Origin: an uncultured delta proteobacterium
GTDB lineage: Bacteria > Desulfobacterota > Desulfobaccia > Desulfobaccales > 0-14-0-80-60-11
Assembly (NCBI GenBank): GCA_963812015.1
Contig: CAWETI010000003.1
Span: 1,760,001 to 1,824,000 of the forward strand
Length of the DNA stretch: 64,000 nt
Direction: 5' to 3'
Shown here piece after piece: positions 19,222 through 22,200 of this stretch. Every line of letters starts with the position of its first letter. Within the stretch, counting starts at the first letter, position 1. The position numbers were made by a program.

Positions 19222-22200
19222 CCGGAGGTCGCGAGTTCGAGTCTCGTCGTCCCCGCCATAGTAAATTCAAGGGCTTAGATGATTTGCTAAGCCCTTTTTC
19301 TTTTCCTCACAAAGCTTTTCCCCCACTAAGTTCTCCCAGGTTGCGGTAATTCCGGCCCCGGATGTCGACTGATACAATAAAACAGGTAATCCATGCCTCA
19401 AGCTCCATGTCCAGGGCCGGAGTAAAGCTATAAGGCGGCCAGGGACCGGTGCATTCGCATAGTAAGCCCCGGTTGGGCGTTGCGGCCGTTGGCCGCCTCG
19501 ATATGCGCCTTAAATCCGCTGACCGCCTTGGCGGGCACCAGGACATCTTTGCGAAAAATTCGTGCGTGTCGGATGGTCCGGGAGATGCCGACTATTTCTG
19601 ATAAGGGGAGGCTATGACCCAAGGCTAAAATTGCGGGGTCCATAAAAAAACTGGCCAGGTGGGGGAGACCTGGCCAGCGGGTGAAAGGAGAAATGGTCTA
19701 TGAACTTTGATTAAGGGGGGGATGTGGTTACCTTAATTATGGTTCATATTTGCCTTACCTATATGCAGGAAGCGTGCCGCAAAATATGATTTATATTTAT
19801 TGTGCATTATCAGTATGTTACCAATTTGGACTCAAAGTACCAGTTCAATTTTTTTTACCGAATCCTGACAGTGCGAAAGCCATTATTGGGTAACTTATTA
19901 AATATATTGTATTATTACACGATATAAATTTTCAGCTAGCCGGCCTAAAAGTCAGCTTCAGGAGGATATGACCTGGGACACTCCAGACCTCCGCTGGCCT
20001 GGGGGTGCTGAACCAAGAAGATTGAAAGACCGGAGTTCCGCCGTCGGGTGGGTTTTCATCAACCCCTGGCCTGGTGCATTTCCTTCCCCCCAAGGGCCGT
20101 GAGGGTATGGCGATCATGTCGGCAGCCAGAGGGAACCCTTGATCAGCAGGTTCTCGCGGCGGCTGCGGTGAGCCGCCAATGGAGAAAATGTCCATCTGCA
20201 TAACTATTTCATCCCGGCATGAGGATAATCTCAGCTGGGGCCCGGCAGACCGGCATAAGAGTGCGAATAATTTTTTTATTATCTTGACATTGGGGAAATT
20301 TCTTGTAAAATTGAACAAGTTTAGCATGTCAGACTGAAGGCAGGGCACAAGTCCTGGACAAGAATCGGACGGGGGTGCTAATTCCCCGCCGATTTTTTTT
20401 TGCCTGACTGCTGTGCGCCCTGCTTTTTTGGCGGGTATATCATTGCAGTATTTGTAGGAGGTTTCACCATGAAGGAAACTGGCACGGTAAAATGGTTCAA
20501 CGATTCCAAGGGCTTCGGCTTCATCACTCGGGAAAGCGGCCCGGATGTGTTTGTGCATCACAGCGCCATCCAGGGTGAGGGCTTTCGCTCCCTGGCCGAA
20601 GAACAGGCAGTTGAATTTGAGGTGGTCCAGGGTCCCAAGGGGCCCCAGGCCCAGAACGTTTTCAAACTTTAAACCATAAGGTTTGATGCTACTCAGAACT
20701 CCGGAGGTGTTGCGACCCCGGAGTTCTGTCACTTCGGGCCCCAGCGCCACGAAAACTGGGGCCGAACCGTCTGGTCCAAGCGTGCCGGAAGCATGGCCAG
20801 CCGAGACTCGCACGTCCTGCTGGGCCGCATCGACCGGGGTGAAGAAAATTTTCTATGCATGTCTTCATGGCTTACGTTCGGGACCAAAACTTTTGCCAGT
20901 TGCTGCCTGAGGAACTGAATAGATCAACCTCTGACGATGCACGCCTTCAAGTGATGGCATTCCCTCCCCTGGGGATCCAGACTCTGGCGCCGGTCCTGCG
21001 CCAACATGGACACCGGGTGCGGCTGTTTGACACCTGTCATCCCCTGATGCAGGCGGAGCACATCGCTCAGGCCGCAGACGCAGAGCGGCCCGACGTCATC
21101 GCGCTCTCCTGCCTGTCGACGACCACCTACCCAGCGGTCAAAAACCTGGCCCGGCGGCTGAAGGTGGAGGCGCCCCACATCCCCATCATCCTGGGCGGAA
21201 CCTTTGCCACCATGAATTCGGACCGCATCCTGGAAGATTGCCCCGACTTAGACTGCGTGGGGGTCGGGGAGGGCGAAGAGCTGCTCCCGGATTATCTGAA
21301 CAACCTTGACAACTTAGGCTCGGTCGCCGGTCTGGTCTGGCGCCACGCCGGACAGATCGTTCGGAACGTCCCCCGTCCCCTTATCCGGGACCTGAATCAG
21401 TTTCCTTACCCCGACCGCACCAGCCTCCCCATCGATTATATCGAGTCCTTGCCCCTGGATGTCCCGGCGGTTCTCTCCCTGGACAAATTTTGTACCATGC
21501 AGACCTCCCGGGGCTGCCCCTATGCCTGCATCTACTGCGATATCCCATCCCTGTCCCAGGGAAAATGGCGCTACCGTTCGGCCGAGCATGTCCTGGGGGA
21601 AATGCAGCAACTGCACGATATGGGTTATCGCTCGATTTACCTCACCGATGATCACTTTCTCCTTAACCGTAAGCGCATCGGCGACATTTGCCACGGGATC
21701 ATTGCCCGTAAGCTCAAGTTCCACTGGGGCTGCGAAGGTCGGGTTGATGCGGTTGCGGTTGATCAGTTGCCGATCATGAAAGAAGCCAACTGCAATTTTC
21801 TGGCCTTTGGGGTGGAGGCGGGCACGCAAAAGGTCCTGGACCGGCTGCACAAAAATCAGACCCTGGCCCAGGTGGAGCACGCCGTCAGTGAGGCGAAGCG
21901 GCAGGGCATCGAACGGGTGCACGGATTTTTTGTCATCAGCTCGCCCGGCGAAACCGAAAAGGATGTCATGGCCAGTTTCCGCTTTGCCGCCCGGCTGAAA
22001 CTGGACACCTTCGGTTTCAATCGCTTATGCGCCTACCGGGGCACGCCGTTGTGGCGGGAGTACGTTGACCGCGGCATCATTGACGACGAGCGCGATTGGG
22101 ACAAATGGTTCAAGTGTTCGGACATCGACCCCACCGCCCTGTCGAGTGCGGCGGTGAACCGGGTGCGCATGAAAGGTTACGCCCGGCTGTTTGCCAGCCG

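What a model noticed while it worked through the whole genome (the two positions that open the first line are those of the whole stretch)
20324..20468. Order-wide ultraconserved ~135-nt leader with embedded terminator upstream of cold-shock protein genes
The 5' untranslated leaders of three cold-shock-domain genes (g03157 at C3:1780324-1780468(+), g00403 at C2:425444-425585(-), g00926 at about C2:1043821-1043954(-); a weaker copy before g01238) are copies of one non-coding element that is not in Rfam. It starts right after a TTGACA promoter box and holds, in order: GCAUGUCAGAC, a CAGGG/CCUG hairpin, a G+C hairpin followed by U8-9 (intrinsic-terminator shape), GCCUGAC-UGC that can pair back to the 5' GCAUGUCAG (enclosing the terminator), and a CCUGC-U6-GCAGG hairpin ahead of the AGGAGG ribosome site. 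The element is kept at 76-97% nucleotide identity in nearly all Desulfobaccales, 1-5 copies a genome: a candidate transcription-attenuation/auto [...]
Evidence so far: Self-BLAST of intergenic regions linked the csp upstream regions; alignment of 5 csp upstream regions of this genome. BLASTN of the 145-nt leader: matches (E<=1e-6) in 78 of 83 genomes of the order, all 17 genera, both families. Alignment of 32 distinct copies (of 52 collected, call 107), RNAalifold consensus: long-range helix (columns 3-11 with 94-102), terminator hairpin + U-run, 3' hairpin; 20 pairs, 2 with compensatory changes; the terminator stem shows GGGUA/UACC, GGGGA/UCCCC, GGGGG/CUCCC variants. Rfam 15 scan at E<=1 of the 7 loci gave only weak cspA-thermoregulator hits (22-40 bits, cut 78) that lie over the coding region, none over the leader.
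(Added by a program. Inside this text positions count along the whole contig: contig position 1,760,001 is position 1 of the stretch shown here. "Call 12" and the like, gene names such as g00115 and contig names such as C1 are that model's own, and its searches are not shown. The text may have been shortened before it was handed on; [...] marks where a part breaks off. The agent that wrote the report below was given it as the finding of a first reader that could run no searches.)

Follow-up and report, generated by a model that had tools for sequence, protein, structure and literature searches.

The report
Terminator-bearing leader RNA of cold-shock genes
Cold-shock protein genes in this group of sulfate-reducer-like bacteria start with an extremely conserved, uncatalogued folded RNA leader that contains a built-in transcription stop signal, and it probably decides how much cold-shock protein is made.

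Summary
Window 20318-20468 is a roughly 150-nt 5' leader between a near-consensus promoter and a 67-aa csp gene. Four of the genome's five csp genes carry it.

- **Distribution:** it is found in 81 of 83 genomes of the order and in 0 of 146 genomes of other families sampled from the phylum.
- **Linkage:** 76 of 78 model matches lie 19-39 nt upstream of a csp gene.
- **Selection:** orthologous leaders are 94% identical, while third codon positions of the csp gene are 66% identical. Identity jumps at the predicted transcription start.
- **Rfam:** it gives only sub-threshold cspA matches.
- **Helices:** all four proposed helices are supported once divergent copies are added. The terminator hairpin plus a U6-U10 run is detected in 75 of 76 copies.
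- **New here:** the invariant 5' box can also pair with the terminator's 5' arm and its conserved loop, which makes a candidate antiterminator. Support for this is moderate and absent in some lineages.
- **New here:** the fifth csp gene has a second terminator-bearing leader family, found in 41 of 83 genomes.

My best reading is a conditional intrinsic-terminator attenuator that responds to cold and/or Csp level. It would be the counterpart of the Rho-dependent csp leader switches of E. coli. No termination data exist. Earlier notes of this scan report analogous leaders in other phyla.

The parts
20284..20311 (+). Sigma-70-type promoter: TTGACA, 16 nt, TAAAAT
   Evidence: 11 of 12 consensus matches, the best site in 19200-21000. 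TTGACA is kept in the copies listed. Mean identity over 20284-20319 is 76% among 27 orthologous loci.
20318..20320 (+). Predicted transcription start
   Evidence: It lies 7-9 nt after the -10 box. Identity jumps from 0.74 to 0.99 at 20320. RNA-library contigs of two runs from two studies begin at 20318 (X18 record 18, X19 record 24). One other contig begins at 20299. This is a weak hint only.
20320..20338 (+). 5' box UUUAGCAUGUCAGACUGAA. It holds the 5' arm of P1 (20323-20332) and the 5' strand of the candidate antiterminator (20321-20337).
   Evidence: 99% identity among orthologues. P1 pairs are 96-99% paired. The nascent-RNA fold pairs it with the terminator's 5' arm and loop.
20341..20356 (+). 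P2 hairpin: CAGGGC, loop ACAA, GUCCUG
   Evidence: 5 of 6 pairs change on both sides on alignment A3 and 4 of 6 on A4. 88-94% of cells are paired.
20365..20392 (+). Terminator hairpin T: 5' arm UCGGACGGGGG, loop UGCUAAU, 3' arm UCCCCGCCGA
   Evidence: Called by the terminator scan. 8 of 9 pairs (A3) and 6 of 9 (A4) change on both sides. My own detector finds it in 75 of 76 copies, with a median hairpin energy of -15.2 kcal/mol. The loop letters UGC are kept in 84-92% of 75 distinct copies even though the stems vary.
20393..20401 (+). U9 tract directly after T
   Evidence: The longest pure U run is 6-10 in 76 of 76 copies, and 9 in 41 of them.
20404..20412 (+). 3' arm of P1, CUGAC-UGCU. It closes a three-way junction around P2 and T.
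   Evidence: RNAalifold consensus. P1 appears in the single-sequence lowest-energy fold of 44 of 76 copies, including divergent ones with other letters (L079, L074, L062, L077). Cognate arms pair better than swapped arms, permutation p=0.011.
20419..20435 (+). P4 hairpin: CCUGC, loop UUUUUUG, GCGGG, with a U-rich loop
   Evidence: 98-99% of cells are paired. 5 of 6 pairs (A3) and 2 of 6 (A4) change on both sides, for example CCUGUUC/GAACAGG in L077 and L079.
20444..20461 (+). UGCAG..UGUAG repeat/palindrome followed by the ribosome-binding site AGGAGG (20456-20461)
   Evidence: Sequence and alignment A1. No consistent helix was shown for it.
20469..20672 (+). csp gene, 67 aa, cold-shock domain
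   Evidence: Pfam PF00313, E=2.9e-30. 76 of 78 leader matches are followed by such a gene within 19-39 nt.
39486..39640 (-). Second terminator-bearing leader family, in front of the fifth csp gene (39279-39479, minus strand). It has a 5' box UU(C/U)A(A/G)..CAGGCG-like, a hairpin, U9 and GGCCUGCG.
   Evidence: Sequence. BLAST matches in 41 of 83 genomes of the order, in one family only (40 of 68 against 0 of 14), one copy per genome. Alignment of 12 copies.

Best explanation
The stretch is a cis-acting regulatory leader RNA of csp mRNAs whose core is a conditional intrinsic terminator, that is, a transcription attenuator.

Proposed course of events:
1. Transcription starts at about 20318.
2. 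The invariant 5' box and the P2 hairpin emerge first.
3. The terminator's 5' arm and loop follow. The 5' box can pair with them (UUAGCAU with GUGCUAA, GU with GG, CUGA with UCGG), forming an antiterminator that encloses P2.
4. If that helix is absent or removed when the 3' arm emerges, the G+C hairpin plus U9 stops RNA polymerase. Only a roughly 80-nt RNA is then made.
5. If the helix holds, polymerase reads on. The 5' box then swaps to its second partner, CUGAC-UGCU just after the U tract, forming P1. The terminator hairpin forms harmlessly, and the mRNA ends up as a closed three-way junction followed by the U-loop hairpin P4 and the ribosome site.

Cold should favour read-through, because helices live longer and polymerase is slower. 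Csp proteins bind single-stranded U-rich RNA and melt weak helices, so they are the likely feedback signal. They could act by keeping the 5' box single-stranded, which promotes termination and gives negative feedback, my preferred direction. Or they could act by melting T, which promotes read-through.

What is shown here:
- the element, its boundaries and its linkage to csp genes;
- strong purifying selection on it;
- the helices P1, P2, T and P4;
- the U tract.

What is inferred:
- that T terminates transcription;
- that the antiterminator forms;
- the signals sensed and the direction of the response.
For: Linkage and selection:
- 76 of 78 model matches lie 19-39 nt upstream of a csp gene on the same strand. 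The two others are a contig edge and an N-masked stretch.
- Among 27 orthologous loci the leader is 93.7% identical. Third codon positions are 66.1%, the sequence upstream of the promoter is 31.8%, and the sequence after the stop codon is 57.3%. There is a sharp step at 20320.

Terminator:
- Stem plus U run is detected in 75 of 76 copies. The same detector finds one in 4 of 29 csp upstream regions of other families of the phylum, and in 1 of 29 on the antisense strand.
- T stems differ between copies but keep pairing. 8 of 9 pairs on A3 and 6 of 9 on A4 change on both sides. Cognate arms pair at -12.95 kcal/mol against -11.15 for swapped arms, p<0.0005.

Whole structure:
- 96.3% of cells are paired and 24 of 29 pairs change on both sides, with 0 of 500 shuffles reaching that (A3).
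- On the structure-blind alignment A4, 92.5% are paired and 12 of 29 pairs change on both sides, against 5.7 +/- 1.5 in shuffles (0 of 500).

Antiterminator:
- It is the lowest-energy fold of the nascent RNA in the window copy.
- The T loop is conserved while the stems vary.
- G078's divergent copy keeps a 9-bp version with an A-U to U-A flip.
- In the main types the native nascent fold is more stable than 93-98.5% of versions with a shuffled 5' box.
- Cognate pairing is -10.61 kcal/mol against -9.91 for swapped partners, p=0.001. The control (5' box against the T 3' arm) gives p=0.89.
- The estimated refolding barrier from antiterminator to T is 11-20 kcal/mol at 37 C, rising to 13-29 at 10 C. 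It is 5 kcal/mol in a copy without the antiterminator.

Transcripts:
- One RNA-library contig runs from 20318 to 20521, across T into the gene.

Precedents from papers (passages read):
- E. coli cspA/B/G leaders are controlled by premature Rho-dependent termination. Cold blocks it and CspA restores it (review PMC12360218).
- Csps change read-through at intrinsic terminators (PMC9765468; PMC8307031).
- S. aureus CspA autoregulates through a U-rich motif in its 5' UTR hairpin (PMC5815144).
Against: - There are no data on RNA 3' ends. The RNA evidence consists of assembled contigs from relatives at 85% likeness or more, which cannot show ends or levels.
- The antiterminator has no covariation on the MAFFT alignment. 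86.1% of cells are paired against 85.4% in shuffles (37 of 500 reach it), and 3 pairs change on both sides against 3.1 expected.
- The count of at least 7 cross pairs in 65 of 75 nascent folds is not discriminating. 33-82% of versions with a shuffled 5' box reach it.
- In the second family of the order (L034, L036, L039) and in L053 and L074, the native nascent fold is no better than shuffles: 19-80% of shuffles are as stable.
- 10 of 75 copies show no antiterminator at all.
- P1 has 0 of 8 pairs changed on both sides on the MAFFT alignment. Its 6 of 8 on A3 come from 1-2 divergent rows each, in an alignment fitted to the model.
- Sliding the partners by one column gives 11 pairs with changes on both sides, against 12 for the real structure.
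- The sequences are related, so permutation p-values overstate the support.
- An alternative fold B is about 3 kcal/mol more stable than the P1/P2/P4 fold in the window copy.
- One copy (L072) lacks P2's 3' arm and T altogether.
Confidence: 0.6

Rival explanations
1. The leader controls mRNA stability or translation, like the E. coli cspA thermosensor or the S. aureus cspA 5' UTR. In this reading the leader acts only after transcription. The T hairpin is a structural arm of a three-way junction, and the U9 tract and the U6 loop are Csp-binding sites. Csp binding or temperature would switch the mRNA between folds that differ in decay or ribosome access.
For: - P1, P2, T and P4 all coexist in the full-length RNA, and this is the lowest-energy fold at 95-100 nt.
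- A second fold, B, is nearly as stable and is the lowest-energy fold in about 32 of 76 copies.
- Conservation continues beyond T up to the ribosome site.
- An RNA contig bridges T.
- U-rich motifs are Csp-binding sites in the S. aureus cspA 5' UTR (PMC5815144, passages).
Against: - A G+C stem followed directly by 6-10 U in 76 of 76 copies is the exact form of an intrinsic terminator, and a junction arm does not need it.
- Fold B has weak comparative support: 6 of 11 pairs change on both sides against 4.3 in shuffles, and 75 of 500 shuffles reach that.
- Modelled accessibility of the ribosome site differs little between folds A and B (0.16-0.32 against 0.37-0.51) and hardly changes between 5 and 45 C.
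- This reading does not exclude attenuation; both may operate.
Confidence: 0.2
2. The leader is the source of a small RNA. Promoter plus T would make an abundant 80-nt RNA whose free, invariant 5' box acts in trans. One target could be the CUGAC-UGCU segment of the other csp leaders; other mRNAs are also possible. Read-through into csp would be secondary.
For: - A strong promoter followed by a strong terminator about 80 nt later has the shape of a small-RNA gene.
- The 5' box is the most conserved part, at 99%.
- It would be single-stranded in the short product.
- There are 1-6 copies per genome.
Against: - No orphan copy was found: 76 of 78 matches are followed by csp, and the other two cannot be judged.
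- There is no second promoter between T and the gene, so csp expression needs read-through.
- The sequence after T is as conserved as the sequence before it.
- The 5' box has two partners in cis.
Confidence: 0.1
3. The conservation reflects the DNA, not an RNA: a promoter-proximal operator for a protein, or recent horizontal spread or gene conversion of a csp cassette.
For: - The 5' box lies at +3 to +20 and contains a short inverted repeat, TCAGnCTGA.
- Identity reaches 97% across genera.
Against: - Third codon positions of the attached gene are only 66% identical while the leader is 94% identical, so this is not recent transfer.
- Paralogous copies within one genome differ more (82%, 74%) than orthologues across genera.
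- Helices keep pairing through changed letters.
- Conservation covers 150 nt and begins sharply at the transcription start.
Confidence: 0.05

Closest known systems
Rho-dependent transcriptional switches in the E. coli/Salmonella cspA, cspB and cspG leaders (Delaleau et al. 2024, as described in review PMC12360218; passages read)
   Same: Both involve premature transcription termination inside a long csp leader, and both place the logic of cold induction and Csp feedback in the leader RNA.
   Different: - Here the stop signal is an intrinsic hairpin plus U tract, not a Rut site for Rho.
- There is no sequence similarity.
- The responsiveness of this leader to cold or Csp is untested.
E. coli cspA mRNA thermosensor with cold box (Rfam RF01766)
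   Same: Both are long structured 5' UTRs of a csp gene with a conserved box at the very 5' end that is shared by paralogous csp genes.
   Different: - Rfam scores are 23.9-52.9 bits against a cut-off of 78, and the matches lie mainly over the coding region.
- The architecture differs: here a three-way junction encloses a terminator.
- RF01766 acts on translation and stability.
S. aureus cspA 5' UTR hairpin with a U-rich CspA-binding motif (PMC5815144)
   Same: Both have a U-rich stretch displayed on a leader hairpin (P4 loop U6; also U9 after T), a likely Csp docking site for autoregulation.
   Different: The S. aureus element works through RNase III processing of a long hairpin. No such long duplex is present here, and binding was not tested.
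Classical terminator/antiterminator attenuators (expression platforms of riboswitches, T-box, PyrR and trp leaders)
   Same: The terminator lies between promoter and gene, and an upstream segment can pair with the terminator's 5' half.
   Different: - No ligand pocket, leader peptide or known binding protein is evident.
- The antiterminator strand has a second, post-terminator partner (P1), so the terminator ends up enclosed in a closing helix. I know of no described family with that layout (from recall, not searched).
Terminator-bearing csp leaders noted earlier in this scan in Omnitrophota, Eisenbacteria and Gemmatimonadota (AI notes)
   Same: Same design: strong promoter, invariant 5' box, and an intrinsic terminator ahead of csp genes.
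   Different: - They are different sequences in other phyla.
- Some of them also precede DEAD-box helicase genes. Here all 4 own-genome matches precede csp.
- I did not check those notes.

Membership tests
Rfam RF01766 cspA thermoregulator | Covariance-model score at or above the gathering cut-off of 78 bits | tested here: not met
   52.9 bits in the window. 23.9-45.4 bits in 6 of 8 other loci, and no match in the other two.
Rfam RF01766 cspA thermoregulator | The match covers the 5' UTR structure | tested here: not met
   The window match runs 20418-20731. That is the last leader hairpin, the coding region and the 3' hairpin. Model positions for most of the E. coli UTR are skipped.
Intrinsic (factor-independent) terminator | G+C-rich stem-loop directly followed by a U tract on the transcribed strand | tested here: met
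   Scan hit at 20370-20388 plus tail. Detected in 75 of 76 copies, with a U run of 6-10 in 76 of 76.
Intrinsic (factor-independent) terminator | The stem is kept by compensatory change | tested here: met
   8 of 9 pairs (A3) and 6 of 9 (A4) change on both sides. Swap test p<0.0005.
Intrinsic (factor-independent) terminator | RNA 3' ends at the U tract | not testable with these tools
   Only assembled contigs of RNA libraries were available.
Terminator/antiterminator attenuator | The terminator lies between the promoter and the start codon of the regulated gene | tested here: met
   Promoter 20284-20311, T 20365-20401, ATG 20469. 76 of 78 matches precede csp.
Terminator/antiterminator attenuator | A mutually exclusive antiterminator helix that is conserved | tested here: inconclusive
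   - For: the nascent-RNA fold, the conserved T loop, the shuffle control at 1.5-7% in the main types, the swap test at p=0.001, and an A-U to U-A flip in L084.
- Against: no covariation on A4, not better than shuffles in 5 of 12 representatives, and absent in 10 of 75 copies.
Terminator/antiterminator attenuator | A sensed signal (temperature, Csp or other) changes read-through | not testable with these tools
   Only model barriers were computed: 11-20 kcal/mol at 37 C and 13-29 at 10 C.
Rho-dependent csp leader switch (E. coli type) | Rut site and dependence on Rho | not tested
   No Rut prediction was run. The stop signal here has intrinsic form.
Trans-acting small RNA gene | A stand-alone transcription unit not tied to one downstream gene | tested here: not met
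   76 of 78 matches are directly followed by csp. The other 2 cannot be judged.

The most novel reading that the evidence does not exclude
The leader would be a three-state kinetic switch built on an intrinsic terminator. One invariant 5' strand first masks the terminator by pairing with its 5' arm and loop. After read-through it moves to a second partner and locks the terminator inside a closed junction. Cold and the free Csp pool would set the outcome. Together with the second leader family in this order and the analogous leaders noted in Omnitrophota, Eisenbacteria and Gemmatimonadota, this would make premature termination the general way bacteria control csp genes. E. coli's Rho-dependent version would then be one variant.
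Probability: 0.3. Interest if true: 0.75.

Novelty: new variant of a known kind. Interest (0 to 1): 0.6.

Why it matters
**For the field.** Csp proteins are among the most abundant RNA chaperones. How their level is set is known in detail only for a few model bacteria. There it relies on leader RNAs that sense cold and Csp itself, and in E. coli this works through Rho-dependent premature termination.

**What this element adds.**
- It is conserved like a protein-coding sequence.
- It puts a textbook intrinsic terminator at the centre of a csp leader in an environmentally widespread, mostly uncultivated order.
- It offers a small, experimentally tractable RNA of about 120 nt, with no ligand. It could be used to study how temperature and an RNA chaperone steer co-transcriptional folding.

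**For annotation.** It is a ready candidate for a new Rfam family.

Tried and rejected
**Alternative folds and reading frames**
- **Fold B.** This pairs the 5' arm of P2 with the 5' arm of P4. It is the lowest-energy fold of the window copy, but comparative support is weak. 83.1% of cells are paired, 6 of 11 pairs change on both sides against 4.3 in shuffles (75 of 500 reach that), and the outer pairs are broken in up to 31 of 77 rows.
- **Thermosensor by A/B switching.** The energy gap of about 3 kcal/mol and the accessibility of the ribosome site hardly change from 5 to 45 C, so there is no support.
- **Mini-ORF.** AUG UCA GAC UGA lies in the 5' box. It has no ribosome site, it sits 6-9 nt from the 5' end, and the stop codon is lost in the second family (GACGUAA). 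Rejected.

**Comparative measures that did not help**
- **Covariation within close copies only.** On 37 sequences (A2), 3 pairs changed on both sides and 98 of 500 shuffles reached that. This was uninformative until divergent copies were added.
- **Counting at least 7 cross pairs as evidence for the antiterminator.** Not discriminating.

**Searches outside the order**
- Model R1 found nothing in 146 genomes of other families.
- The broader model R2 gave only E=0.06-0.9 hits in 13 of 146 genomes. None of the 13 loci has a csp gene within about 1.5 kb.
- The pattern scan of genome contigs was too loose.

**RNA libraries**
- Depth tables from RNA contigs sum over organisms and cannot rank parts, so I did not use them.
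- No place was reported where many molecules begin or end.

**Literature**
- PMC2965389 (premature terminator survey) has no mention of csp or cold shock in its main text.
- Papers holding both 'Desulfobaccales' and 'cold shock': 0.
- The searches listed no paper describing an intrinsic terminator in a csp leader. I read listings only, apart from the papers cited. Subscription journals are not covered.
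Full report
**What is there**

Window 20469-20672 (+) encodes a 67-aa cold-shock-domain protein (Pfam PF00313, E=2.9e-30). 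In front of it lie, in order:
- a promoter, TTGACA at 20284-20289, 16 nt, TAAAAT at 20306-20311, with 11 of 12 consensus matches;
- the box UUUAGCAUGUCAGACUGAA, from 20320;
- hairpin P2, CAGGGC-ACAA-GUCCUG, 20341-20356;
- a G+C hairpin T, 20365-20392, followed by U9, 20393-20401;
- CUGAC-UGCU, 20404-20412, which pairs back to AGCA-U-GUCAG, 20323-20332, forming helix P1;
- hairpin P4, CCUGC-UUUUUUG-GCGGG, 20419-20435;
- AGGAGG, 20456-20461.

The neighbours are a Lon protease gene (16381-18834), two tRNA genes (19099-19255) and, downstream, a B12-binding radical SAM gene (20855-22396).

**Copies and distribution**

The genome has five csp genes.
- Four carry the leader: this one, C2:425436(-), C2:1043806(-) and C2:1384907(+).
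- Their identity to this copy is 82%, 74% and partial.

In the order:
- BLAST finds the leader in 81 of 83 genomes at E<=0.001. That is 57 of 58 of the good-quality genomes and 17 of 17 genera, with up to 97% identity across genera.
- A covariance model (R1, built from 37 copies) finds the same 81 of 83, with 0-6 matches per genome.
- Of the two genomes without a match, G078 has a divergent copy that the model missed. The one csp gene found in G024 (84% complete) has the second leader type described below.

In the rest of the phylum:
- R1 found nothing in 146 sampled genomes of other families.
- A broader model (R2, built from 78 matches) gave only E=0.06-0.9 hits in 13 of those 146. None of them is near a csp gene.

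The 12 model-confirmed loci from the public genome collection carry these record titles: delta proteobacterium, Deltaproteobacteria, Desulfobaccales, Desulfobacterales or Syntrophobacterales MAG.

Of 78 model matches in the loci I held, 76 are followed by a csp gene within 19-39 nt. The other two are a contig edge and an N-masked stretch.

**Selection**

Among 27 orthologous loci from several genera, mean identity to the window is:
- 93.7% in the leader;
- 95.5%, 97.1% and 66.1% at codon positions 1, 2 and 3 of the csp gene;
- 75.6% in the promoter;
- 31.8% upstream of the promoter;
- 57.3% after the stop codon.

Identity steps from 0.74 to 0.99 at 20320.

The leader is therefore conserved like amino-acid-determining positions and far above the silent positions of its own gene. 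That excludes recent transfer as the cause. Paralogous copies in one genome differ more than orthologues across genera.

**Transcription**

Assembled contigs of four metatranscriptome libraries were laid at 85% likeness or more, so they come from relatives. They cover the leader.
- Contigs of two runs from two studies begin at 20318.
- One of them (209 nt) runs to 20521, across T into the gene.
- Another contig begins at 20299.

This is a weak hint for a start at about 20318 and for the existence of read-through RNA. Contigs cannot show ends or levels, and no DNA run was laid beside them.

**Structure**

Close copies alone carry no covariation signal: 3 pairs with changes on both sides, reached by 98 of 500 shuffles. 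After fetching the most divergent copies, the picture changes.

- **Model-fitted alignment A3 (77 distinct rows).** 96.3% of cells are paired. 24 of 29 pairs change on both sides, against 5.1 +/- 1.5 in shuffles (0 of 500). Partners slid by 1-3 columns give 27-53% paired and 6-14 such pairs.
- **Structure-blind MAFFT alignment A4 (75 distinct rows).** 92.5% of cells are paired. 12 of 29 pairs change on both sides, against 5.7 +/- 1.5 (0 of 500). But slides of one column reach 11, and P1 has none.
- **Single-sequence folds.** They recover T in 73 of 76 copies, P1 in 44, P2 in 40 and P4 in 44. The remaining copies take fold B. Divergent copies with other letters (L079, L074, L062, L077, L078, L053, L067) still fold into P1+P2+T+P4.
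- **Alignment-free swap test.** It compares cognate with exchanged arms among unique pairs. T gives -12.95 against -11.15 kcal/mol (p<0.0005). P1 gives -12.68 against -12.05 (p=0.011). The control, 5' box against the T 3' arm, gives p=0.89.

The sequences are related, so these p-values are optimistic.

**The terminator**

- A G+C stem directly followed by a U tract is found by my detector in 75 of 76 copies. The median hairpin energy is -15.2 kcal/mol.
- The longest pure U run is 6-10 in all 76 copies.
- The same detector finds one in 4 of 29 csp upstream regions from other families of the phylum, and in 1 of 29 on the antisense strand.
- The stems differ between paralogue types but stay paired, for example GGAAGGGUAU/AUACCUUCC, GACGGUA/UGCCGU and CGAAGCGGC/GCCGUUUCG.

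**A candidate antiterminator (new)**

Folding the growing transcript shows a different pairing before the 3' arm of T is made. The 5' box pairs with T's 5' arm and loop, around P2:
- UUAGCAU with GUGCUAA;
- GU with GG;
- CUGA with UCGG.

Full pairing of the 7-9-nt loop with the 5' box is sterically incompatible with closing T. That is my inference from pseudoknot geometry.

This would explain two oddities. The T loop (UGC kept in 84-92% of copies) is more conserved than the T stem. And the 5' box is nearly invariant, because it has two partners.

Support is mixed.

For:
- In the main types the native nascent fold beats 93-98.5% of versions with a shuffled 5' box.
- The swap test gives p=0.001.
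- G078's divergent copy keeps 9 bp, with an A-U to U-A exchange.
- L080 keeps the helix through two wobble changes.

Against:
- There is no covariation on A4.
- The crude count (65 of 75 with at least 7 cross pairs) is matched by 33-82% of shuffles.
- The helix is no better than chance in the second family of the order and in some paralogues. It is absent in 10 of 75 copies.

Heuristic refolding barriers from antiterminator to T are 11-20 kcal/mol at 37 C and 13-29 at 10 C. A copy without the antiterminator gives 5 kcal/mol. These are upper-bound model figures.

**Mechanism proposed**

I read this as a conditional intrinsic terminator. The 5' box either masks T, giving read-through, or fails to, giving a roughly 80-nt dead-end RNA. 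After read-through it moves to CUGAC-UGCU, forming P1. The mRNA then carries a closed three-way junction and the U-loop hairpin P4 ahead of the ribosome site.

Cold and Csp are the natural signals, for these reasons from the literature (passages read):
- In E. coli, cold blocks and CspA restores premature, Rho-dependent termination in the cspA/B/G leaders (PMC12360218).
- Csps alter read-through at intrinsic terminators in either direction (PMC9765468; PMC8307031).
- U-rich leader motifs bind CspA for autoregulation in S. aureus (PMC5815144).

The direction of any Csp effect here is open.

**Rivals**

The rivals are a purely post-transcriptional element, a leader-derived small RNA, and DNA-level conservation. 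They are weighed in their own sections. The first is not exclusive of attenuation.

**A second leader family**

The fifth csp gene (39279-39479, minus strand) has another leader. It has a TTGACA-type promoter in relatives, a 5' box resembling UUUAG-UCAGGCG, a hairpin, U9 and then GGCCUGCG. It occurs once per genome in 41 of 83 genomes, in one family of the order only. Its hairpin is invariant in the 12 copies aligned, so it gives no covariation.

All five csp genes of this genome thus sit behind a hairpin plus U9 plus GCCUG.

**Novelty**

- Rfam 15 has no family for it.
- My literature searches listed no description of an intrinsic terminator in a csp leader, or of this element. I read listings only, apart from the cited papers, and subscription journals are not covered.
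- The principle, a csp leader RNA with premature termination, is known from E. coli, so I class this as a new variant of a known kind.
- Earlier AI notes of this scan report analogous terminator-bearing csp leaders in Omnitrophota, Eisenbacteria and Gemmatimonadota. I did not check them. If they hold, the design is widespread and convergent.

Noticed in passing
window 39486-39640 (-), before the csp gene at 39279-39479 (-): A second conserved csp leader family with a hairpin, U9 and GGCCUGCG, plus a further U9 just before the ribosome site. It is found in 41 of 83 genomes of the order, in one family only, one copy per genome.
   Followed up: partly
window 20855-22396 (+): A B12-binding radical SAM gene lies directly downstream of csp (Pfam PF02310 and PF04055). 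A homologue at 77-88% identity follows the orthologous csp in 15 of the 30 loci examined. An earlier scan note describes such a cold-shock cluster.
   Followed up: partly
L072 (G007:C96), leader at locus 1501-1573 (-): A natural variant of the leader lacks about 48 nt, namely the 3' arm of P2 and the whole terminator with its U tract. It keeps the promoter, the 5' box, the P1 3' arm, P4 and an intact csp gene. It could be a terminator-less allele or an assembly error in a MAG.
   Followed up: no
window 19256-20283: About 1 kb lies between the tRNA genes and the csp promoter with no convincing reading frame. It holds a terminator-like hairpin after the tRNAs (19269-19296, +), another on the minus strand (19678-19650), and an A+T-rich stretch around 19750-19930 with three weak promoter-like sites on the minus strand. 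There is no Rfam match.
   Followed up: no
L044 and L045 (G032:C214, G039:C3); G103:C19:24913-25872: Tandem arrays of csp genes. In two genomes, two leader-plus-csp units of different leader type lie about 575 nt apart. In a genome of another family of the phylum, four csp genes sit in a row.
   Followed up: no
window 20693-20732 (+): A hairpin after the csp stop codon (CAGAACUCCGG...CCGGAGUUCUG) has no U tract and is 72-75% conserved among orthologues. It may be a stabiliser or a weak terminator between csp and the radical SAM gene.
   Followed up: no
window 20326-20337 (+): The 5' box contains AUG UCA GAC UGA, a three-codon frame with no ribosome site. Its stop codon is lost in the second family of the order, so it is probably not translated.
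   Followed up: yes
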